A stretch of DNA of 64,000 nt from assembly GCA_964538855.1 (NCBI GenBank), contig CAZIEY010000001.1, positions 82,811 to 146,810 on the forward strand, in the 5' to 3' direction. The stretch comes from an uncultured Candidatus Saccharibacteria bacterium. Its GTDB lineage: Bacteria > Patescibacteriota > Minisyncoccia > Phycocordibacterales > JAACPR01. Of this stretch, positions 3,018 to 48,549 are shown piece after piece. How positions within the stretch are numbered: the stretch's first letter is position 1; every line of letters begins with the position of its first letter. Made by a program: the position numbers and the translations under genes. Below the pieces are notes generated by a model that was not told where the DNA came from, made no database searches, and saw only the letters and a list, made by a program, of their open reading frames with translations.

Positions 3018-4670
3018 CTACAACAAAATACGTAACGCATTTAATATCACCGTCACATCAATCGCTTCTTGGATAAAGGCGCCGACGACAGGGTTGATGT
3101 AACCGAGCGCGGCGAACACCATTCCGATAGTAGAGAGTGCGATTCCACCATACACACTTTGGCGAGCGATGCTCATTGTGCGGCGGGATGTCTTCATAAT
3201 GTATTCCAAGCGATCAATGCCGGAACCGAGCACTGCGATATCGGCCGCTTCTATTGCTGCACCATTTTCGCTGCCAGAAAAAACGATGCCGACATTTGCG
3301 GTTGCCAAAGCCGGCGCATCATTCACACCGTCACCAATCATCGCGACGACTTCGCCGCGCTGTTGCGCCTCGCGAACCAGACGCATTTTATCTGCGGGTG
3401 TCTGTTCCGCGTAAATTTTCATACGAGTATCGTTGAACAAATTTGTCGCGTGCGCCAATGTGTCGCCAGTAATCAGAGCAGACGTTGCGCCCCTTTCCGC
3501 AAGCGTCGTAATAAAATCTGCAGATCCGTGTTTCATCACATCGGAAAAAGCAAAGTTCGCGATTGTTGCATCGCCTCGCATCAAATGCGTTCCATCAAAT
3601 TTATATTCCGCACCATCAACACGTCCGGAAATTCCCTTGCCGATTTCTTCGTGTACATCGGTGGCGACTGGAAACGCGACATTTCGCCGACGAGCTTCGG
3701 CCACAATTGTCCGCGCACGCGGATGCAACGAATGAATTTCGAGCGCGGCTGCAATTCGCAAATCTATATCTGAAATTTTTGACACAAGCGCCGGCTCACC
3801 GAGCGTCAGTGTCCCCGTCTTATCAAAGAAAAAAGTTGTCGCGCTGTCGATCGATTCCAACGCCGAAGGTTTGCGCACAATAATTCCAGCCTTGGCGGCA
3901 CGCGACATTCCAGACACGAACGCAACTGGTGCGGCGATAATCAACGGGCACGGTGTTGCAATGACGAGCACGGCGAGAACTCGTCCCAATTCCCCAGTGT
4001 AGACATACGCACACGTTGCGAGAGCCACCGACAATCCTGTGAAATACGCATTCGCTCGCGCCGATAATCGCACCATACGAGCCGGATGAGTTCGGGCTTT
4101 TTCAACCACTTCGACAATTTTGTGATATGTGGATGTGGTGAAGTCGCCGGTGACGCGCATTTCGAATGCCTCACCTTTGTTAATCACGCCCGATTTAATG
4201 GAAGTGTCAGCAACGACTTCGACCACATCGCTTTCGCCCGTCAAATTCGCTGTGTCGAGCAACGCCCCGCGCGGCGATACCACCACGCCGTCGAGCGGAA
4301 TGATTTCTTGATGCTTGACCAAAATAATTGAGCCGTCATGAATTGATTGTAGAGGTGTGTCGACGAACATGTCGCCTTGTCGCACGGCGCACGTTTTTGG
4401 AATTGTATGTGCCAATTGAGACAGCGACGACGAAGCTTTACGAGTCGCATATCGCTCTAACGCCTCGCCTCCCAAAAACATCACCGCGATCACTGCGCCC
4501 GCAATATATTCCCCCGTCACAAGCGACAACACCATCGCCGCTGCTGCGATATAATCCAAACTGTATTCACCGCGTCGAATGTGTTGAAACGAATCTATCG
4601 CAATGCGAATGAGTCCGAGGCAGATGATGGGGATGAGGAATATTTCCATACATAAAGTATACCAACACAT
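3018..4670 (-). CDS. P-type ATPase, heavy-metal (P1B-like) translocating, minimal architecture
   Basis: DKTGTLT phosphorylation motif, MIGDGVNDAPALA hinge motif, TPCPL (CPx-type) membrane motif; 550 aa, no N-terminal metal-binding domain. Confidence 0.8.
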   Translation of the reverse strand: MCWYTLCMEIFLIPIICLGLIRIAIDSFQHIRRGEYSLDYIAAAAMVLSLVTGEYIAGAVIAVMFLGGEALERYATRKASSSLSQLAHTIPKTCAVRQGDMFVDTPLQSIHDGSIILVKHQEIIPLDGVVVSPRGALLDTANLTGESDVVEVVADTSIKSGVINKGEAFEMRVTGDFTTSTYHKIVEVVEKARTHPARMVRLSARANAYFTGLSVALATCAYVYTGELGRVLAVLVIATPCPLIIAAPVAFVSGMSRAAKAGIIVRKPSALESIDSATTFFFDKTGTLTLGEPALVSKISDIDLRIAAALEIHSLHPRARTIVAEARRRNVAFPVATDVHEEIGKGISGRVDGAEYKFDGTHLMRGDATIANFAFSDVMKHGSADFITTLAERGATSALITGDTLAHATNLFNDTRMKIYAEQTPADKMRLVREAQQRGEVVAMIGDGVNDAPALATANVGIVFSGSENGAAIEAADIAVLGSGIDRLEYIMKTSRRTMSIARQSVYGGIALSTIGMVFAALGYINPVVGAFIQEAIDVTVILNALRILL

Positions 4671-4712
4671 TCACACCTATACAAAAACATATTTTTTGCC
4701 ATAATATCGCGT

Positions 4713-18016: not shown

Positions 18017-18195
18017 TGCTGCCCGACAGGGACTCGGTCACAGGTTTTCTTCGCTTCGCTACGAAACCCGCGACCCCGCCTCGCGACCTATTTCTCACTA
18101 CGTTCGAAACAGGTAACCCGCTCCGGCTTTCGAGTCCTGACGTAACGCTCTCGCGTTACTTCGGACATCACTCCGCTCGCTTCGCTTGCTCCGTG
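18017..18195 (-). repeat. tRNA-trailing GC-rich element ending in 20-nt direct copy of tRNA-Gln 3' end
   Basis: 18017-18036 is identical to 18194-18213 (tgctgcccgacagggactcg); contains GGGGTCGCG and GTGACCGAG blocks shared with the Leu and Trp elements; strong internal hairpins (GTAACGC/GCGTTAC). Confidence 0.6.
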
Positions 18196-18266
18196 CTGCC
18201 CGACAGGGACTCGAACCCCAATACCCGCCTCCAAAGGGCGGTGTCCTACCATTAGACGATCGGGCA
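18196..18266 (-). tRNA. tRNA-Gln (anticodon TTG)
   Basis: Manual fold: acceptor TGCCCGA/TCGGGCA, D-loop AATGGTA, anticodon loop CTTTGGA, T-loop TTCGAGT; CCA not encoded. Confidence 0.8.
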
Positions 18267-18418: not shown

Positions 18419-18919
18419 TTATCTCATAGATAATTTGTGTTGCAAATGATTTAAATACTCTATTAAACCACCGGCTTCGAATTTCAAAAGTTTTGCGCAT
18501 TTGTGCACGTTGGGACTCAAGACACACCCTAACTTATGACCATGTCGCAAAAAGCGCACTGTCGAATAGAAATCTCCATCACTAGTCACCACAATCGCTT
18601 TATCGTAATTACGTAATCTAGACATAATGTATACAATCATATCTCCGTCACAATTTCCTTTTATATTTCTATGTATATCAATCACGACGGGTTTGAAAAC
18701 AAGAATATAGCCACATCGCCGTAACAAATTATAAAACTCTGTATTCGTTTCAATAAAACCAATAAAGACAAATACTTTATCGATTTTGTACTTATCCTTG
18801 AGATAAACAAAGAACTTTTTCCAGTCTAATTTCCAACCCATAGCGACAATCCCCATCGTCAAATTCTGCGCGTCTATAAAAGCAAAATTGCGTCGCTGAT
18901 TTTTCATCATGCCACGCAT
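18419..18919 (-). CDS. NYN-domain (LabA-like) predicted RNA nuclease
   Basis: NYN hallmarks: FIDAQNL (first Asp), NIKGNCDGDM, VVTSDGDF. Confidence 0.7.
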   Translation of the reverse strand: MRGMMKNQRRNFAFIDAQNLTMGIVAMGWKLDWKKFFVYLKDKYKIDKVFVFIGFIETNTEFYNLLRRCGYILVFKPVVIDIHRNIKGNCDGDMIVYIMSRLRNYDKAIVVTSDGDFYSTVRFLRHGHKLGCVLSPNVHKCAKLLKFEAGGLIEYLNHLQHKLSMR

Positions 18920-31671: not shown

Positions 31672-31755
31672 GCCGGAGTGGCGGAATTGGTAGACGCGCA
31701 CGACTCAAAATCGTGTATTCGAGAGGATGTGAGGGTTCGAGTCCCTCCCCCGGCA
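31672..31755 (+). tRNA. tRNA-Leu (anticodon CAA)
   Basis: GCCGGAGTGGCGGAATTGGTAGACGC… long variable arm, anticodon loop CTCAAAA, T-loop TTCGAGT; CCA not encoded. Confidence 0.85.
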
Positions 31756-31767
31756 CATTATTAAAAA

Positions 31768-31797
31768 ATCTCCTATTCTTTAGGGGATTTTTTAATA
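31768..31797 (+). terminator. intrinsic terminator after tRNA-Leu
   Basis: ATCTCCTA…TAGGGGAT hairpin followed by TTTTTT. Confidence 0.6.
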
Positions 31798-31969
31798 ACT
31801 GTGTAAGGGATCTGGGACGAGAAAGGCGGAGGCGTGGGTCCCCTGTGTCGAGAGTATCGAGACCTGGGGCGCCGAGCCGGGGTCGCGAACACTTAGATTT
31901 TTATGAGTGAGTCCCTCGAGCGAAATAAAAAGCTTAGTGATTCGTGACCGAGTCCCTCCCCCGGCACCA
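31798..31969 (+). repeat. tRNA-trailing GC-rich element ending in 19-21-nt direct copy of tRNA-Leu 3' end (with CCA)
   Basis: Blocks GCCGAGCCGGGGTCGCGAACACTT (31871-31894) and TTAGTGATTCGTGACCGAG (31934-31952) are shared with the Trp element; 31949-31969 cgagtccctcccccggcacca copies the tRNA-Leu T-arm/acceptor. Confidence 0.65.
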
Positions 31970-32456: not shown

Positions 32457-32500
32457 CGCATTATATAAAAAATAATATGCGCTACAGGTTCGACTTTTTT
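32452..32500. terminator. bidirectional intrinsic terminator
   Basis: CTGTAGCGCAT…ATGCGCTACAG 11-bp stem flanked by A/T tracts; serves convergent genes 32028 (+) and murE (-). Confidence 0.7.
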
Positions 32501-33806
32501 ATTTCACCAGCTTTTGCAACTCTTCCCTCACCACAACTCGATCATCCCAGGGCGCAGATTTTTCACCAATCATAATCGACTGCTCCGCACCTTTACCTGT
32601 GATAAGCACCACATCTCCAGTTCTCGCTAATGTAAGCGCCTGATGAATCCCCGCGCGGCGATCTTCAATGACAAATAAATCTTTGCCACGAACTTTTCCA
32701 AACTTTTCAGCCACAATTGCAATATCCTCCAAAATTTTCTTCGGATCATCTTCGTATGGATCGACATTTGTCACCACCACAAAATCCGCCATCTTCGCAG
32801 AAAGCTCGCCCATAATTGCGCGCTTTGCCGTATCACGACCACCACCTTCGGCACCAAGTGCAATAATTGTTTTCGCACCAGCCGGTTTCATATTATTCGC
32901 GGTCTGCAACACATTCGTAATGCTTTGCTTTTCATGAGCATAGTCCACGAGCACGGTGAAATCTTGTCCTTCAATAATTTTTTCCATGCGACCAGGAATA
33001 ATTTTCAAGTCCAAAAGACCACGCGCAATTTCCGCATCGCTCGCCCCAAAAAGTCGCGCAATAATAATTCCGGGCATTGCATTGTACACATTAAACTTCC
33101 CTAAAATGCCAAGCTCGAAATTCGCAGAGTCGACACGGAATTTCACACCAGAACCAATTTCCTGAACCGCAGTCGCCACGACATTCGCCGGTTTTGAAAT
33201 TCCAAAGGTGATTTTTTTATCAGCTTTATGATTCAAATAGAAATCTGCGTGCTCACTATCAGCATTTGCAATGATAACTTTTTCAACACGTTTGCCCGAA
33301 ATCTTTTTCTGATGTGACGACAAGGCCGCAAACATCTTTGCCTTCATCTGTTTATATTTTTCAAAACTTCCATCATGCGAAGGCAAATGTTCCGGAGACA
33401 AATTCGTAAACACACCGATATCATAATAAATTCCAGTGTGACGAAATTGCTTGAGCCCCTCCGAAGTTGTCTCGACAATACAGAACTTGCACCCAGCACG
33501 AACCATCTCGGCCATTTTCTCTTGGATAACAAATCGCCCCGGCATCGTCATGTGATATTTATTCAAAAATTCTTGCTCTCCGATGCGGATATTTGCAGTG
33601 GTGATAATGCCAGTTGTATGACCACTTGCCATTAAACACGACCAAATAAAATTAATAGTGGAAGTTTTACCCTTGGTCCCCGTCACACCAATCACAATCA
33701 TTTTTTTCGAAGGAAATCCGAAATAAATTGTCGCACACATCGCGAGCATATAGTGATACAAGTACAAAAGTTGCTTTGGTAATAATTGTTTAATGAGTTT
33801 TTTCAT
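32499..33806 (-). CDS. murE: UDP-N-acetylmuramoyl-tripeptide synthetase (MurE-like Mur ligase)
   Basis: GVTGTKGKTST P-loop, DYAHEK…GGRDTAKRAIMG, NVDPYEDDP (DNPR-like) motifs; lacks an N-terminal domain. Confidence 0.65.
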   Translation of the reverse strand: MKKLIKQLLPKQLLYLYHYMLAMCATIYFGFPSKKMIVIGVTGTKGKTSTINFIWSCLMASGHTTGIITTANIRIGEQEFLNKYHMTMPGRFVIQEKMAEMVRAGCKFCIVETTSEGLKQFRHTGIYYDIGVFTNLSPEHLPSHDGSFEKYKQMKAKMFAALSSHQKKISGKRVEKVIIANADSEHADFYLNHKADKKITFGISKPANVVATAVQEIGSGVKFRVDSANFELGILGKFNVYNAMPGIIIARLFGASDAEIARGLLDLKIIPGRMEKIIEGQDFTVLVDYAHEKQSITNVLQTANNMKPAGAKTIIALGAEGGGRDTAKRAIMGELSAKMADFVVVTNVDPYEDDPKKILEDIAIVAEKFGKVRGKDLFVIEDRRAGIHQALTLARTGDVVLITGKGAEQSIMIGEKSAPWDDRVVVREELQKLVK

Positions 33807-34885
33807 CGTAGTAATGATTTGAAATATCGACGGAGATTATACATATGATACCAAAATGAATTCGTAACTACATCAAAAAATTCAGAGCGAATTACAGCCT
33901 CTCCTCCAAATTTCTTTTTGAAGGTTGTGATACCGTCCCAACCCTTGTACGTATCTGATTCAGCAGAAATTGCGCCGAAACTATAAAAATCGCAGCCGAG
34001 TTTTTTTGCGTGGCACACTGCGCGCCACTGTGCCAAATACGTCGGCATGCGGTTTCGTTCGTCGGCACTCGATCCGCCAAAGACGTAATTCGCCACCCCA
34101 CTAAACACAATAACTAAATCAATCGCCAAAACTTTTTCACCGAATTTCGCAACAGAAATATAGGAATCTTTCGAATCAAGGCCTGCAAAAACATTCTGAT
34201 AGTATTCTTTGGAATGGAGATGGAAATTATTTCGTTTCGCAGTATCCACCATTAATTGATAAAAGATGTCGAAGTATTTCCCAAAGTTTTCGGTCACAAT
34301 TTCTGAAGTGATTTGTTTTCGTTCAGCGAGACGAATCGAGTAACGAGTCTTTTCATGCATGTCCATCAAAATTTCATTTTCTGTTTTGTCCAATTTCAAA
34401 AACCATTCTACGCGAGGCTGAAAATATGCCGAGTGATAGGTGCAACGTGGTGACTTGGTAAAAAGTTTCGATAACACATCCGGCGCGATTGGTGGTGAAA
34501 AATCAAGTCGAGCAAAAACCGCGTTCTCTGCGCGGGCAATTTTTTGCAACTCTTGCCTTAAAAAGACAAGGAGTGGTTCCGAAACGCTTTTCACGACCGG
34601 CCCGAGTGGTACATACAAATATGTTTTTCCAAACACGAGTGGAAATCGTAATATCTGGAAATATGCGACCGGACCAGTATCATCAGAAATTAAAAAACGC
34701 TTTACCTCTCGACCCAAATTTTTCTGCCAAGATCCATACACATCGGCCTGAGTAAATGGTACATGTTGCGAAAGAGTACTCGGATCAAAATGTTCCTTGT
34801 CGCTCAGGGCCTTAATAATAAACGTGTTCATGGTGAATAAAAAATAATTTACGAGCTGATGCCTTGTTATAGAATAGTTTATCAA
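33803..34885 (-). CDS. FemAB-family peptidoglycan interpeptide-bridge aminoacyltransferase
   Basis: FemAB/FemX fold pattern (…FQILRFPLVFGKTYLYVPLGPV…, …VFGGSSADERNRMPTYLAQWRAV…); adjacent to murE. Confidence 0.6.
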   Translation of the reverse strand: MINYSITRHQLVNYFLFTMNTFIIKALSDKEHFDPSTLSQHVPFTQADVYGSWQKNLGREVKRFLISDDTGPVAYFQILRFPLVFGKTYLYVPLGPVVKSVSEPLLVFLRQELQKIARAENAVFARLDFSPPIAPDVLSKLFTKSPRCTYHSAYFQPRVEWFLKLDKTENEILMDMHEKTRYSIRLAERKQITSEIVTENFGKYFDIFYQLMVDTAKRNNFHLHSKEYYQNVFAGLDSKDSYISVAKFGEKVLAIDLVIVFSGVANYVFGGSSADERNRMPTYLAQWRAVCHAKKLGCDFYSFGAISAESDTYKGWDGITTFKKKFGGEAVIRSEFFDVVTNSFWYHMYNLRRYFKSLLR

Positions 34886-37104: not shown

Positions 37105-37333
37105 TGCGGGTCCACCACTCTCGGTCACGAATCACTAAGTAAAATGCTTCGCCTCGACCATATTTCGATAGATGATGACGGCTCGCATTTTACAAAGTGT
37201 TCGCGACCCCGGCTCGGCCATCCCAGATTTCGCTGCGCTCCATACTGGGACCCTTGGCCTGCGCCTTTCGAATCCTGGTGGACCTCGCAACAAAAATCGC
37301 CGCCTCCTCTCGGAGACGGCTCATTTTGTTGTG
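37105..37333 (-). repeat. tRNA-trailing GC-rich element ending in 13-14-nt direct copy of tRNA-Trp 3' end; contains inverted copy of tRNA T-arm
   Basis: Blocks GCCGAGCCGGGGTCGCGAACACTT (rc of 37195-37218) and ACTTAGTGATTCGTGACCGAG (rc of 37119-37140) are shared with the Leu element; 37105-37117 tgcgggtccacca duplicates 37332-37344; 37267-37284 ttcgaatcctggtggacc is the inverted complement of the tRNA 3' region. Confidence 0.65.
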
Positions 37334-37405
37334 CGGGTCCACCAGGATTCGAACCTGGAACCTCAGTTTTGGAGACCGATGTTTTACCATTGAAACTATA
37401 GACCC
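37334..37405 (-). tRNA. tRNA-Trp (anticodon CCA)
   Basis: GGGTCTATAGTTTCAATGGTAAAACATCGGTCTCCAAAACTGAGG…TTCGAATCCTGGTGGACCCG; CCA not encoded. Confidence 0.85.
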
Positions 37406-39176: not shown

Positions 39177-41234
39177 TTAAAGGTCAATCTCCGCCAACTT
39201 CGCGTTCGTTGTAATGAATGATTTTCGAGCAGGAACGTCTTTACCCATGAGCATATCGAAGACTTTGTCGGCTTCGATTGCGTCGTCAATCACGACTTTT
39301 TTGAGGACACGATTGTTTTTATCCATTGTAGTTTCCTTCAATTCGTTCGCGTTCATTTCTCCGAGACCTTTATATCGTTGAACTCGCCATTTTGTAGAGT
39401 TTTTCTTTGTGGCAACTTCGACTTCAGCGTCGGCTGGTTCAACCTCGCCTTCTCCACCTTCTTCGTTGATTTCGTCATTGTCGGCACCGATCAATTTCAC
39501 TTTTTCTTCGTCGCTGTACAAATAGTGAACTTCTTTACCTCGCATCACTTTATACAGAGGAGATTGCGCGATGAACAAATATCCACCATCAATAATTGGT
39601 CGAAAATATCGATAGAAAAGAGTGAGCAACAATGTCGCGATGTGCGCACCGTCGACGTCGGCATCTGTTGCGATAATAATTTTGTGATATCGCAATTTTG
39701 TAATATCAAATGTGTCACCGATTGCAGCACCAAGCGCAACGACGAGATTTTTGATTTGCTCTGACGCCAACATTTTATCGAGACGAGCTCGTTCCACGTT
39801 CAAAATCTTACCTCGCAATGGAAGCACGGCTTGAGTTCGGCGATCTCGACCAGTTTTAGCTGTACCACCCGCAGAGTCTCCCTCCACAATGAAGAGTTCG
39901 GCTTCGGCTGCGTCTTTGACCTGACAGTCGGCGAGTTTTCCAGGCAACGTCATGCCTTCAAGTGCGCCCTTTCGGAGCACAGAATCTTTTGCTGCTTTTG
40001 CGGCTTTTCGAGCACGCACAGCGAGCACTACTTTTGAAACGATAGCTTTACCATCTTCTGGGTGTTCTTCGAGGAATGCAGCGAATGCTTCACCAAATAC
40101 GGCTTCAGTCGCACCACGCGCTTCGGTTGAACCGAGTTTTGCTTTGGTCTGACCTTCGAATTGAATTTCAGGCATCTTGATCGACACGACCGCAGTGATA
40201 CCTTCGAGAACGTCTTCACCTGTGAAAGCACCGTCGGCTTCTTTGATCAAGTTATTTGCCTTGCCGTAGGTATTCAATGTTCGAGTGAGCGATGTTTTGA
40301 AACCAGTCACATGTGTACCACCTTCGCTGTTGTAAATGTTGTTTGCAAATGCAGTGAGGCGAGGAGAAATATCGTCCACGTATTGAAGCGAAACTTCGAC
40401 CTGAATATCACCGACAGATTTTTCAACGTAAAAAATATTCGGGTTGATTGGTTTTTGAAATTGATTTTGAAATTTTACAAGCGACGCGAGTCCTCCTTCG
40501 AAATAGAAAGTTTGTGACGGAGCTTCGACTTCGGAATCTTGGAGGTAATAAATGTCGTCGAAGTCCATTTTGTCTTTGACGAGACGCGCATCAATCGCAG
40601 TGATTTTCAAACCACGCACGAGATAGGCTTGTTGGCGCAAGTGACCGAGAATCTTTTTGAAATCATATTCAACAGTTTCGAAAATTGTATCGTCGGCTTT
40701 GAAAGTAACAATAGTACCGCGCATTTTTGTAGCACCGATTTTCTTTACATCTGATTTTTTCTTACCGATATTGTATTCTTGACGATATTTAAAACCGTCG
40801 CGGTGAACTTCGGCAATGAGGTGCGTCGAAAGCGCGTTTACCACAGAAGCACCCACACCGTGGAGACCTCCAGACACTTTGTAACCGCTGCCTTCCCCAC
40901 CGAATTTACCTCCGGCATGGAGCACTGTCATAACAGTTTCAAGCGCAGACACTTTTGTTTTAGAGTGTTTATCAACCGGAATACCACGACCGTTGTCGAC
41001 AACGCGAACATAACCGTCCGGCAAAAGCGCGACTTCGATGCGATTCGCGTGACCACCCATGGCTTCGTCGCGAGAGTTATCAAAAATTTCTGTAATCAAG
41101 TGATGCAGACCATCCGGGCCAGTTGTACCAATGTACATTCCGGGTCGCTTTCGTACCGGCTCGAGCCCCTCGAGAACTGTAATCTCATCCGCACCATACT
41201 TTTTAACGTCTTTTTCTGATTTTTTGTCTGCCAT
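39177..41234 (-). CDS. gyrB: DNA gyrase subunit B
   Basis: GHKL ATPase (GLHHLITEIFDNSRDEAMGG), TOPRIM EGDSAGG, PLRGKILNVE; start set to MADKK (41234) because TGCTATAAT -10 element lies 9 nt upstream. Confidence 0.9.
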   Translation of the reverse strand: MADKKSEKDVKKYGADEITVLEGLEPVRKRPGMYIGTTGPDGLHHLITEIFDNSRDEAMGGHANRIEVALLPDGYVRVVDNGRGIPVDKHSKTKVSALETVMTVLHAGGKFGGEGSGYKVSGGLHGVGASVVNALSTHLIAEVHRDGFKYRQEYNIGKKKSDVKKIGATKMRGTIVTFKADDTIFETVEYDFKKILGHLRQQAYLVRGLKITAIDARLVKDKMDFDDIYYLQDSEVEAPSQTFYFEGGLASLVKFQNQFQKPINPNIFYVEKSVGDIQVEVSLQYVDDISPRLTAFANNIYNSEGGTHVTGFKTSLTRTLNTYGKANNLIKEADGAFTGEDVLEGITAVVSIKMPEIQFEGQTKAKLGSTEARGATEAVFGEAFAAFLEEHPEDGKAIVSKVVLAVRARKAAKAAKDSVLRKGALEGMTLPGKLADCQVKDAAEAELFIVEGDSAGGTAKTGRDRRTQAVLPLRGKILNVERARLDKMLASEQIKNLVVALGAAIGDTFDITKLRYHKIIIATDADVDGAHIATLLLTLFYRYFRPIIDGGYLFIAQSPLYKVMRGKEVHYLYSDEEKVKLIGADNDEINEEGGEGEVEPADAEVEVATKKNSTKWRVQRYKGLGEMNANELKETTMDKNNRVLKKVVIDDAIEADKVFDMLMGKDVPARKSFITTNAKLAEIDL

Positions 41235-48370: not shown

Positions 48371-48436
48371 CTTGTCTACTAGACTACCATTTTTACGAGC
48401 TTTTTCAACCTTTTTTTGTTTTTTCCTCTTTGTAAA

Positions 48437-48468
48437 AATTTAGACAGGCACAATTTGTGCCTGTCTAA
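48437..48468. terminator. bidirectional intrinsic terminator immediately 3' of tRNA-Thr
   Basis: TAGACAGGCAC-AATT-TGTGCCTGTCTA perfect 11-bp stem flanked by A5/T5. Confidence 0.8.
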
Positions 48469-48473
48469 ATTTT

Positions 48474-48549
48474 TGGAGCCACCTGTCAGGCTTGAACTGA
48501 CGACCTGCCGTTTACAAAACGGCTGCTCTACCAACTGAGCTAAGGTGGC
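48474..48549 (-). tRNA. tRNA-Thr (anticodon TGT), CCA encoded
   Basis: GCCACCTTAGCTCAGTTGGTAGAGCAGCCGTTTTGTAAACGGCAGGTCGTCAGTTCAAGCCTGACAGGTGGCTCCA. Confidence 0.85.

What the first reader, a model, noticed from the sequence alone, without database searches (positions are those of the whole stretch)
31672..31969. Family of GC-rich tRNA-trailing elements, each ending in a direct copy of the cognate tRNA 3' end (Leu locus)
Three of the four tRNA genes in the window (Leu, Trp, Gln) are each followed, 150-230 nt downstream and in the same orientation, by a GC-rich segment. Each segment ends in a 13-21 nt copy of that tRNA's own T-arm 3' half plus acceptor 3' strand. Leu: cgagtccctcccccggcacca, which unlike the gene itself includes CCA. 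The Leu and Trp elements share two conserved blocks, GCCGAGCCGGGGTCGCGAACACTT and TTAGTGATTCGTGACCGAG. These are mutually near-complementary (GGTCGCGAAC vs GGTCACGAAT) and can close a hairpin around a variable core. The Gln element carries diverged versions of both (GGGGTCGCG, GTGACCGAG). This is the classic attL/attR signature of tRNA-targeted integrative elements, but the intervening DNA is only ~200 bp and encodes nothing. The options I see are: (a) decayed or miniature non-autonomous integrative elements mobilised in trans; (b) a lineage-specific tRNA 3'-trailer or processing structure; (c) a tRNA-3'-end mimic RNA. The one tRNA that encodes CCA (Thr) lacks the element and instead has a canonical terminator. 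In all three cases the element is followed 30-60 nt later by a protein-coding gene.
Basis: seen in the sequence. Interest (0 to 1): 0.8.

Follow-up and report, generated by a model that had tools for sequence, protein, structure and literature searches.

The report
Structured insertion cassettes behind tRNA genes
The three GC-rich segments are copies of a widespread, apparently undescribed family of about 200-bp protein-less, highly structured cassettes that sit behind tRNA and tmRNA genes of ultra-small (CPR) bacteria and Elusimicrobia, are built around copies of that gene's own 3' end, and come and go between close relatives.

Summary
Behind tRNA-Leu, Trp and Gln lies the same module.

A pattern from the core hit at least 118 loci, nearly all Patescibacteria or Elusimicrobia. 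Most lie 40-90 nt behind a same-strand tRNA of any isotype, or behind tmRNA. X2 tracks the neighbouring gene. P1b, P2 and P3 covary strongly. No Rfam family matches, and no paper in the searchable library describes it.

Two close relatives carry the same tRNA-Leu with an empty site. Tandem arrays exist. Near-identical cores sit behind different tRNAs while the flanks stay local. No integrase recurs nearby, and the core is almost absent from viral contigs.

Best reading: a non-autonomous, single-strand-structured insertion cassette that targets the T-loop/3' end of tRNA and tmRNA genes. Its enzymology is unknown. The "CCA" in the Leu copy, and the link between the Thr tRNA's encoded CCA and the missing element, are coincidental.

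The parts
31672..31756 (+). tRNA-Leu(CAA) gene. Its last 19 nt (31738-31756, T-loop C56 to C74) form X1, the first sense copy.
   Evidence: ARAGORN; Rfam tRNA, 55 bits; sequence; unit boundaries.
31757..31797 (+). T1: A-tract / hairpin / T-tract terminator between the tRNA and the element. It is absent from the empty-site relatives.
   Evidence: Sequence; folds as a long hairpin. L121 and L125 have no such hairpin after the same tRNA.
31799..31820 (+). X' (Leu): diverged antisense copy of X, ctgtgtaagggatctgggacga. It is the 5' strand of closing stem P1.
   Evidence: It covaries with X between the window and L124: GG to AA in X' when CC changes to TT in X.
31821..31949 (+). Conserved core (Leu): GAAAG, P2 hairpin (about 31825-31879), GG, P3 hairpin (about 31881-31949, with a variable tip), ending in GUGACC.
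   Evidence: Pattern hit; covariance-model hit, 66.5 bits, E = 9e-21; MFE z = -3.3; covariation.
31949..31967 (+). X2 (Leu): exact 19-nt sense copy of the tRNA segment C56-C74. The native downstream flank follows it.
   Evidence: Flank homology with the empty site L121 and the filled site L124.
37333..37405 (-). tRNA-Trp(CCA) gene. X1 is 37332-37351.
37288..37331 (-). T1 (Trp): canonical intrinsic terminator, GCCGTCTCC-GAGA-GGAGGCGGC followed by a T-tract.
   Evidence: Top terminator hit in the scan; sequence.
37270..37287 (-). X' (Trp): perfect 18-nt antisense copy of the tRNA T-loop, T-stem and acceptor 3' strand.
37123..37269 (-). Conserved core (Trp).
   Evidence: z = -6.9; 45.2 bits, E = 2e-13.
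37105..37123 (-). X2 (Trp): partly decayed sense copy. The exact 13 nt tggtggacccgca lie at 37105-37117.
18195..18266 (-). tRNA-Gln(TTG) gene. X1 is 18195-18213.
18132..18170 (-). X' (Gln), split in three parts: an acceptor-antisense part (18159-18170), hairpin H with a GAGA loop (18143-18158), and a T-arm-antisense part (18132-18140). No canonical terminator precedes it.
18036..18131 (-). Conserved core (Gln).
   Evidence: 85.4 bits, E = 3e-27.
18017..18036 (-). X2 (Gln): exact 20-nt sense copy.
48474..48549 (-). tRNA-Thr(TGT), an internal control. It encodes CCA, has a palindromic terminator only, and carries no element.

Best explanation
Each segment is one copy of a family of about 170-230-bp insertion cassettes with no coding capacity. 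The cassettes occupy the 3' side of tRNA and tmRNA genes in Patescibacteria and Elusimicrobia.

The inserted unit, in order:
- X1, a copy of the gene segment from T-loop C56 to the 3' end, which keeps the tRNA intact.
- T1, usually a hairpin terminator.
- X', an antisense copy of X, often interrupted by a small hairpin H with a CUGC loop.
- A conserved three-way-junction core.
- X2, the displaced original 3' segment, which follows the unit.

Shown:
- The anatomy.
- The folded single strand has tRNA polarity, and the structure is supported by covariation.
- Strict linkage to tRNA and tmRNA genes of any identity.
- Presence/absence between close relatives, bounded exactly by the X repeat.
- Tandem arrays.
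- Exchange of cores between loci while the flanks stay local.
- X' follows the functional X1 even when distal X2 decays, while the 7-8 nt of X2 that close the junction are kept.

Inferred:
- The cassette spreads or turns over by recombination or template switching at the T-loop-derived junctions (...TYGAA|core|CGAnTCC...).
- X' is templated from the local tRNA by fold-back at the terminator hairpin, and X (sometimes X plus the terminator) is re-copied.
- Whatever enzymes act do so in trans.
- The core is the cis-acting part under selection. It is probably an RNA made by read-through from the tRNA promoter, or possibly a folded ssDNA intermediate.
For: Distribution:
- 88 of 121 hits lie less than 400 nt (mostly 40-90 nt) downstream of a same-strand tRNA, covering 18 isotypes.
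- Six 'orphan' hits follow tmRNA, others follow another unit, and five are chance hits in GC-rich genomes.
- A window scan with filters off finds only the three tRNA-linked copies.

Tracking of the neighbouring gene:
-.
- Permutation test: 6.27 against 3.68 +/- 0.18, with 24 of 79 perfect.

Structure:
- 90% of cells are paired, against 35-45% in slid controls. The covariation score is 0.506 against 0.11-0.14.
- Invariant G.U pairs in P3 fix the folded strand.

Empty and filled sites:
- L121 (ParB 95% identical) and L125 (93%) have tRNA-Leu followed directly by the native flank.
- L124 (94%) and the window have the cassette, followed by the same flank.
- L121 also lacks the Trp cassette.

Arrays: L014, L031, L058 and L120.

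Local templating:
- Cores 98% identical lie behind tRNA-Leu in one genome and tRNA-Ser in another. Identity runs exactly from GAAAG to GTGACC; H stems, T1 and X' differ.
- Core similarity follows genome (0.5-0.89), not isotype (0.61, against a background of 0.59).
- L124 is a mosaic: its P2 resembles the window's Gln element and its P3 the window's Leu element.
- X' tracks X1 rather than X2 in 29 loci against 6.
- In L040, L055 and L069, X plus the terminator is duplicated, and the palindrome is extended only in the upstream copy.

Other core families share the same flank architecture: 27 of about 100 non-seed tRNAs.
Against: - No transposase, integrase or reverse transcriptase recurs within 8 kb, so no enzyme is identified.
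- Gene conversion between pre-existing copies could homogenise cores without any transposition.
- Empty sites could arise purely by deletion between X1 and X2, so gain has not been demonstrated.
- Purifying selection on the core and on P1b in integrated copies fits a host function equally well.
- For tRNA-Leu the empty sites have no terminator. The fold-back model then needs an extra loss step.
- There are no expression data.
Confidence: 0.55

Rival explanations
1. Host-beneficial non-coding RNA. The core is a functional RNA co-transcribed with the tRNA or tmRNA. It might be a read-through insulator or processing module, a protein-binding sRNA, or a self-cleaving ribozyme. Its closing stem borrows the neighbour's acceptor and T-arm sequence. 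Presence/absence reflects occasional deletion between the direct repeats.
For: - Strong covariation, invariant junction nucleotides and invariant G.U pairs.
- P1b is kept even where distal X2 decays.
- Conservation across two phyla and many habitats.
- Orientation is always that of the tRNA.
- The cassette supplies a terminator to a tRNA that otherwise has none.
Against: - Function alone does not explain why the stem must be the neighbour's own sequence.
- Distribution among tRNAs is patchy (3 of 4 in the window; about 27% of non-seed tRNAs).
- Tandem arrays and truncated units exist.
- Several unrelated core families share the same flanks.
- A terminator usually lies upstream of the core, which should limit its transcription.
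- Close relatives do without the element.
Confidence: 0.25
2. Folded single-stranded DNA recombination site. X' and X pair in ssDNA to rebuild a duplex copy of the tRNA gene's 3' end. A trans-acting tyrosine recombinase or HUH enzyme recombines this with the chromosomal gene, as with integron attC sites or the CTX-phage attP. The unit X-T1-X'-core would be the circular intermediate.
For: - The antisense-spacer-sense architecture, arrays behind a fixed site, and within-genome homogeneity of the structured part all parallel integron cassettes.
- The circular permutation is 68-74% paired, with z from -4.9 to -11.
- X' tracks X1, its partner in such a circle.
- The GCGAAGC mini-hairpin is enriched 12-fold and is strand-specific at 29:1. 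GNRA loops are rare and UNCG loops absent in core tips.
Against: - No recombinase recurs nearby.
- Invariant unpaired nucleotides and G.U pairs are more typical of RNA.
- The same GCGAAGC hairpin is used in an ordinary terminator in this lineage.
- The T-loop sequence does not fit the integron core site GTTRRRY.
- Retargeting to another tRNA would need both arms to change together.
Confidence: 0.15
3. Ordinary remnants of integrase-encoding prophages or genomic islands that integrated into tRNA genes and were then almost entirely deleted.
For: A direct repeat of the tRNA 3' segment, and use of tRNA and tmRNA genes, are the classic signature of such elements. This is established knowledge; tRNA gene fragments left by integrated elements are discussed in PMC9897764.
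Against: - Random deletion remnants would not share a roughly 120-nt covarying core across more than 100 loci and two phyla.
- They would not share a constant size and layout.
- There is only 1 hit in 2.9 million viral contigs.
- No integrase genes lie nearby.
Confidence: 0.03

Closest known systems
tRNA/tmRNA-gene-targeting integrative elements (tyrosine-integrase prophages, ICEs, genomic islands; T-loop sublocation class)
   Same: - Insertion at the T-loop-to-3'-end segment of tRNA and tmRNA genes.
- The insert supplies a replacement 3' end.
- The displaced 3' end remains as a direct repeat.
- Tandem occupancy occurs.
- Empty sites are found in relatives.
   Different: - Only about 200 bp, with no integrase or cargo.
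- Carries an antisense copy of the att segment and a conserved three-way-junction core.
- The same core is found behind many different tRNAs with locally matching flanks.
Integron gene cassettes with attC sites, and CTX-type elements that integrate as folded ssDNA
   Same: - Inverse copy, structured spacer, then direct copy forming a folded single-stranded site.
- Arrays behind a fixed site.
- Structure is conserved by covariation.
- The structured part is homogeneous within a genome.
   Different: - No IntI, attI or Xer/dif context.
- The arms are tRNA-specific rather than a common core site.
- The spacer has invariant nucleotides.
- The cargo is only a terminator.
MITEs / REPINs (short non-autonomous hairpin elements mobilised in trans, e.g. 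by RAYT transposases)
   Same: - Short, non-coding and hairpin-forming.
- Intergenic, multi-copy and without their own enzyme.
   Different: - The terminal repeats are not constant; they are copied from the adjacent tRNA.
- Strict linkage to tRNA and tmRNA genes, with fixed orientation.
- A 19-55-bp duplication of the target.
tRNA-like RNA structures (tmRNA tRNA-like domain, bacterial Y RNA YrlA, viral TLS, mascRNA)
   Same: The closing stem equals the acceptor and T-stem strands of a tRNA, and the element can end at the tRNA 3' end.
   Different: - No Rfam match.
- The T-loop is replaced by a two-hairpin junction.
- The 3' NCCA would be base-paired.
- The identity of the stem changes with the neighbouring gene.
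Guide-bearing mobile-element RNAs (IS200/IS605 omega RNA, IS110 bridge RNA)
   Same: A conserved scaffold directly abuts a roughly 20-nt segment identical to the local target.
   Different: - No TnpB, IscB or IS110 recombinase gene is adjacent.
- The target-matching segments are mutually complementary.
- The occupied site still contains the target.
- This comparison rests on memory of those systems, not on a test.

Membership tests
Integrase-type tRNA-targeting integrative element | Direct repeat of the tRNA 3' segment flanks the insert, and the tRNA gene stays intact | tested here: met
   X1 and X2 are identical over 19-20 nt for Leu and Gln. The tRNAs score 55-59 bits.
Integrase-type tRNA-targeting integrative element | Empty site in related genomes | tested here: met
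   L121 and L125 are empty; L124 and the window are filled, with the same flank.
Integrase-type tRNA-targeting integrative element | Element encodes, or lies next to, its integrase | tested here: not met
   The insert is about 200 bp with no ORF. No recombinase cluster recurs among 1300 ORFs from 118 8-kb loci.
Integron cassette / attC | Folded single-strand site made of an inverse and a direct repeat; cassettes in arrays | tested here: met
   P1 is formed by X' and X, with covariation. Arrays are seen.
Integron cassette / attC | Common core sites (RYYYAAC / GTTRRRY) and an adjacent intI-attI platform | tested here: not met
   The arms are tRNA-specific and the junction is GTT|CGAnT. No integrase ORF recurs.
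MITE / REPIN | Terminal inverted repeats that are constant between copies, and a short fixed-length target duplication | tested here: not met
   The inverted arms differ at every locus and match the local tRNA. The duplication is 19-21 nt, or up to about 55 nt.
Any curated RNA family (Rfam 15, including the small self-cleaving ribozymes, tmRNA, Y RNA and riboswitches) | Covariance-model match | tested here: not met
   Only tRNA hits at the gathering threshold. Nothing credible at E <= 10 on the elements, nor at E <= 0.05 on eight loci carrying other core families.
tRNA acceptor-end mimic (TLS-like) | Acceptor-type helix ending in a single-stranded NCCA | tested here: not met
   In genes that encode CCA, X' begins with tgg, complementary to CCA (L013, L018, L037, L061). 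Distal X2 is often decayed.
Self-cleaving ribozyme (new class) | Site-specific self-scission | not testable with these tools
IS200/IS605 omega RNA | Scaffold located at the 3' end of a tnpB or iscB gene | tested here: not met
   There is no ORF between the tRNA and the core. The downstream genes are unrelated to each other.

The most novel reading that the evidence does not exclude
The core is an autonomous nucleic-acid machine: a new ribozyme, or a viroid-like circular RNA/ssDNA unit (X-T1-X'-core). It would propagate without a dedicated protein by invading the T-loop of tRNA and tmRNA genes and re-templating its closing helix on the local gene. That would make it a programmable, tRNA-guided mobile element in the smallest bacterial genomes.
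Probability: 0.15. Interest if true: 0.95.

Novelty: new variant of a known kind. Interest (0 to 1): 0.78.

Why it matters
If the main reading holds, the most reduced bacterial genomes carry a large, previously unnoticed population of tiny structured cassettes at a large share of their tRNA and tmRNA genes.

Possible consequences:
- A new conserved RNA (or ssDNA) fold, with more than 100 covarying examples, ready for biochemical testing.
- A route to a mobility or recombination mechanism that copies its target-matching arms from the target itself.
- A practical point for annotation and assembly. Contigs break at these repeats, and partial tRNA copies can be miscalled.
- A population marker for strain turnover in CPR bacteria.

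Tried and rejected
- **Known RNA families.** Rfam at gathering and permissive thresholds, on the window elements and on other core families, gave nothing.
- **Hammerhead reading of the three-way junction.** GAAA is present, but there is no CUGAUGA segment and the junction lengths do not fit (by inspection).
- **Group I intron.** The Patescibacteria tRNA intron papers concern anticodon-loop position 35/36 and are not relevant.
- **T-loop intron or splicing to X2.** The Trp X2 cannot rebuild the T-stem.
- **Primer-binding site for mature tRNA.** In genes without CCA, X' continues as the complement of the gene's trailer, not of CCA.
- **Phage origin.** Only one hit in the viral collection, and that is an Elusimicrobium-type array at a contig end.
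- **Associated protein.** ORF clustering in 118 loci found only housekeeping neighbours such as SmpB and FtsH-like proteins.
- **CCA hypothesis.** Rejected.
- **Second synteny test through the NYN-domain neighbour of tRNA-Gln.** Homologues are at most 64% identical, so it was uninformative.
- **First look-up of the window's own ParB.** It returned only a contig that ends about 140 nt from the gene, an assembly break at the tRNA/element.
- **Literature searches.** Six queries found no description of the element (two Breaker-lab surveys checked).
- **IS91-type GTTC target idea.** Dropped, because family-2 copies include GGTTC inside X2.

Full report
**1. What is in the window**

ARAGORN and Rfam find four tRNA genes. 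Behind tRNA-Leu (31672-31756, +), tRNA-Trp (37333-37405, -) and tRNA-Gln (18195-18266, -) lies a GC-rich stretch in the tRNA's orientation. tRNA-Thr has only a palindromic terminator.

- CGGGGTCGCG occurs exactly once in each element.
- GTGACCGAG occurs once in each element plus one stray coding copy, where 0.27 are expected.
- A combined pattern, GAAAGSCG-N30-55-CGAGSCGGGGTCGCG, hits only the three elements and none of 100 shuffles.

The terminal copies of the tRNA 3' end are 19 nt (Leu), 20 nt (Gln) and 13 nt (Trp).

In Trp this is a perfect 18-mer, ggtccaccaggattcgaa. In Leu and Gln it is diverged, with changes that keep G-U pairing.

Single-sequence folds give the same architecture three times, with z-scores of -3.3, -6.9 and -3.3:
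- a closing stem P1, made of the antisense copy X' and the sense copy X2;
- GAAAG;
- hairpin P2;
- GG;
- then X2.

**2. The family elsewhere**

Almost all are Patescibacteria (Saccharibacteria, Paceibacterota, Kaiser-, Zambryski-, Nomura- and Taylorbacteria, and others) or Elusimicrobia.

- 88 of 121 hits lie less than 400 nt, mostly 40-90 nt, downstream of a same-strand tRNA. Eighteen isotypes are represented.
- Among the 'orphans', six follow tmRNA genes, others follow another unit in a tandem array or are cut by the locus edge, and five are chance hits in GC-rich coding DNA.
- With filters off, a covariance model built from 42 copies finds only the three tRNA-linked copies in the 64-kb window (85, 66 and 45 bits) plus one weak hit at E = 0.08.
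- 2.9 million viral contigs hold a single hit, an Elusimicrobium-type array at a contig end.

**3. The terminal copy tracks the neighbour**

In 86 adjacent cases the sequence after GUGACC is the T-loop (from C56), T-stem 3' strand, acceptor 3' strand and discriminator of the upstream tRNA or tmRNA.

Over the 11 distal positions, identity to the element's own tRNA averages 6.27. With permuted pairings it is 3.68 +/- 0.18, with a maximum of 4.25 in 2000 permutations. 24 of 79 copies are perfect, while only 0.9% of cross-locus pairs reach 9 of 11.

**4. It is a folded single strand**

On 42 diverse copies, the structure P1b/P2/P3 has 90% of cells paired, against 35-45% when partners are slid. It shows 288 double-sided changes against 96 in shuffles, and a covariation score of 0.506 against 0.11-0.14.

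The base of P3 contains two G.U pairs: one invariant (42 of 42) and one G.U in 28 copies and G-C in 13. These would be A.C mismatches on the other strand, so the tRNA-sense strand is the structured one.

The small hairpin H that often splits X' has covarying stems and a conserved CUGC loop.

No Rfam family matches this core or the other core types.

**5. General anatomy**

The layout is: tRNA ... X1 | T1 | X' (with or without H) | core | X2.

- T1 consists of an A-tract, a hairpin and a T-tract, and its flanks are mirrored right up to the tRNA end.
- X1-T1-X' therefore forms one long palindrome. It is perfect in L021, L025, L037 and the window's Trp copy.
- The native terminator of tRNA-Thr is also a mirrored hairpin, so the mirrored flanks of T1 are a lineage habit. 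The abutting X' is not.
- In genes that encode CCA, X' starts with tgg. In genes that do not, X' continues as the complement of the gene's trailer. The copy is therefore made from the gene or primary transcript, not from mature tRNA.

**6. Evidence that it is an insertion**

ParB, the gene next to tRNA-Leu, has close homologues in other assemblies.

| Locus | ParB identity | State at tRNA-Leu | Evidence |
|---|---|---|---|
| L121 | 95% | Empty: tRNA followed directly by agagttgacttcattttcaaattagtccatag..., the promoter region of the next gene; no terminator, no element | |
| L125 | 93% | Empty: an ORF follows directly | |
| L124 | 94% | Filled: tRNA-Leu, T1, X', core, X2, then the same flank (..agttgacttcatatttaaattagtccatag..) | |
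| Window | - | Filled, same flank | |

The difference is exactly [X-T1-X'-core], bounded by the X repeat.

The comparison also shows that the 'CCA' after the window's Leu X2 arises from an 11-nt loss in the flank.

L121 also carries the orthologous rpmG-tRNA-Trp locus without the element.

Tandem arrays of two to three units, some truncated, occur in L014, L031, L058, L105, L117 and L120.

**7. Flanks are local, cores travel**

- Core similarity does not follow tRNA isotype: same isotype in different genomes gives 0.61, against a background of 0.59.
- Copies behind different tRNAs in one genome are alike (0.5-0.89).
- The nearest neighbour of a core usually sits behind a different tRNA.
- The L034 (Leu) and L092 (Ser) cores are 98% identical. 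The identity runs exactly from GAAAG to GTGACC, while H stems, T1 and X' differ.
- L124's Leu element has a P2 like the window's Gln element and a P3 like the window's Leu element. Its tRNA acceptor differs from the window's (cttcggc against ccccggc), and X1, X2 and X' all carry the matching change.
- Where the acceptor part of X2 has decayed, X' still matches X1 in 29 loci and X2 in 6. The first 7-8 nt of X2, which close the junction, are kept.
- In 12 of 76 loci the sequence after X2 is homologous to T1. In L040, L055 and L069, X plus the terminator is duplicated and only the upstream copy has the palindrome extended into X'. This is what fold-back copying from the terminator hairpin would leave.
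- At least four further core types share the same flanks: 27 of about 100 non-seed tRNAs have a downstream copy of their own 3' end.

**8. Interpretation**

The facts fit a non-autonomous insertion cassette specific for the T-loop/3'-end segment of tRNA and tmRNA genes. Its conserved part is a structured single strand, and its target-matching arms are copied from the local gene.

Not shown:
- whether the cassette is gained as well as lost;
- whether cores move by transposition or by gene conversion;
- whether the active form is RNA or ssDNA;
- which enzymes act.

No integrase, transposase or reverse transcriptase recurs in the neighbourhoods.

A host function for the RNA remains a serious rival, because the core and P1b look selected in situ.

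A folded-ssDNA, attC-like mechanism is attractive for two reasons. The circular permutation is almost fully paired. Loop usage is unusual for RNA: C(GAA)G and C(GUCA)G dominate, few loops are GNRA, none are UNCG, and GCGAAGC is 29:1 strand-biased. However, the same mini-hairpin also serves in an ordinary terminator here.

**9. Novelty**

Six full-text searches and two surveys of bacterial ncRNA discovery gave no description of such an element. Rfam 15 has no model for it.

Partial tRNA gene copies left by integrated elements are known in general (PMC9897764). A 200-bp covarying cassette with tRNA-templated arms is not. The literature library is incomplete, so prior description elsewhere cannot be excluded.

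Noticed in passing
L010, L027, L004, L084, L101 (family 2); L083, L105 (family 3); L097, L108 (family 4); L104, L112 (family 5): At least four other core types sit behind tRNAs with the same layout of X1, hairpin, X', core and X2. One example is ..UCGAAAACCUUUUGAG..CCAAAAGGUGUACUG..CUGUAAG... In family 2 the sense copy starts further 5', at GGTTC.
   Followed up: partly
L003 and L035, downstream of tRNA-Pro: The stretch between the tRNA and its 3'-end copy contains partial tRNA-like pieces (a T-arm plus the acceptor 3' strand of a different Pro-like tRNA) instead of a recognisable core.
   Followed up: no
window 18171-18194; elements in many loci; L121 285-320: The heptamer GCGAAGC, often as GAGCGAAGCGAG, is 12-fold enriched in the elements and 29:1 strand-biased. 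It also forms the terminator hairpin of tRNA-Trp in L121. It matches the mini-hairpin known for unusual stability in DNA.
   Followed up: partly
window 48430-48473 (- strand): The tRNA-Thr terminator is a perfect mirrored A-tract / hairpin / T-tract that abuts the encoded CCA. Bidirectional-type terminators appear to be the norm in this lineage.
   Followed up: partly
L119 (Logan contig SRR13208889_67595): An independent assembly of the same ParB locus ends about 140 nt upstream of ParB, at the tRNA-Leu/element. This suggests that these repeats break short-read assemblies.
   Followed up: no
window 4574-4675 (+) and 40641-40649 (+): A weak covariance-model hit (11.4 bits, E = 0.08) and a stray GTGACCGAG lie inside coding regions. 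Both are probably chance matches.
   Followed up: no
window 18419-18919 (-): The NYN-domain protein upstream of tRNA-Gln has a 58%-identical paralogue on the same 388-kb source contig and no close orthologue in the relatives that share ParB.
   Followed up: no
window 32499-34885 against L121: Between tRNA-Leu and tRNA-Trp the window carries a Mur-ligase gene and a 360-aa neighbour that are missing from the otherwise syntenic L121 region. L124, which does have them, shows a FemAB-family gene next to the Mur ligase. This points to a local rearrangement or insertion.
   Followed up: no
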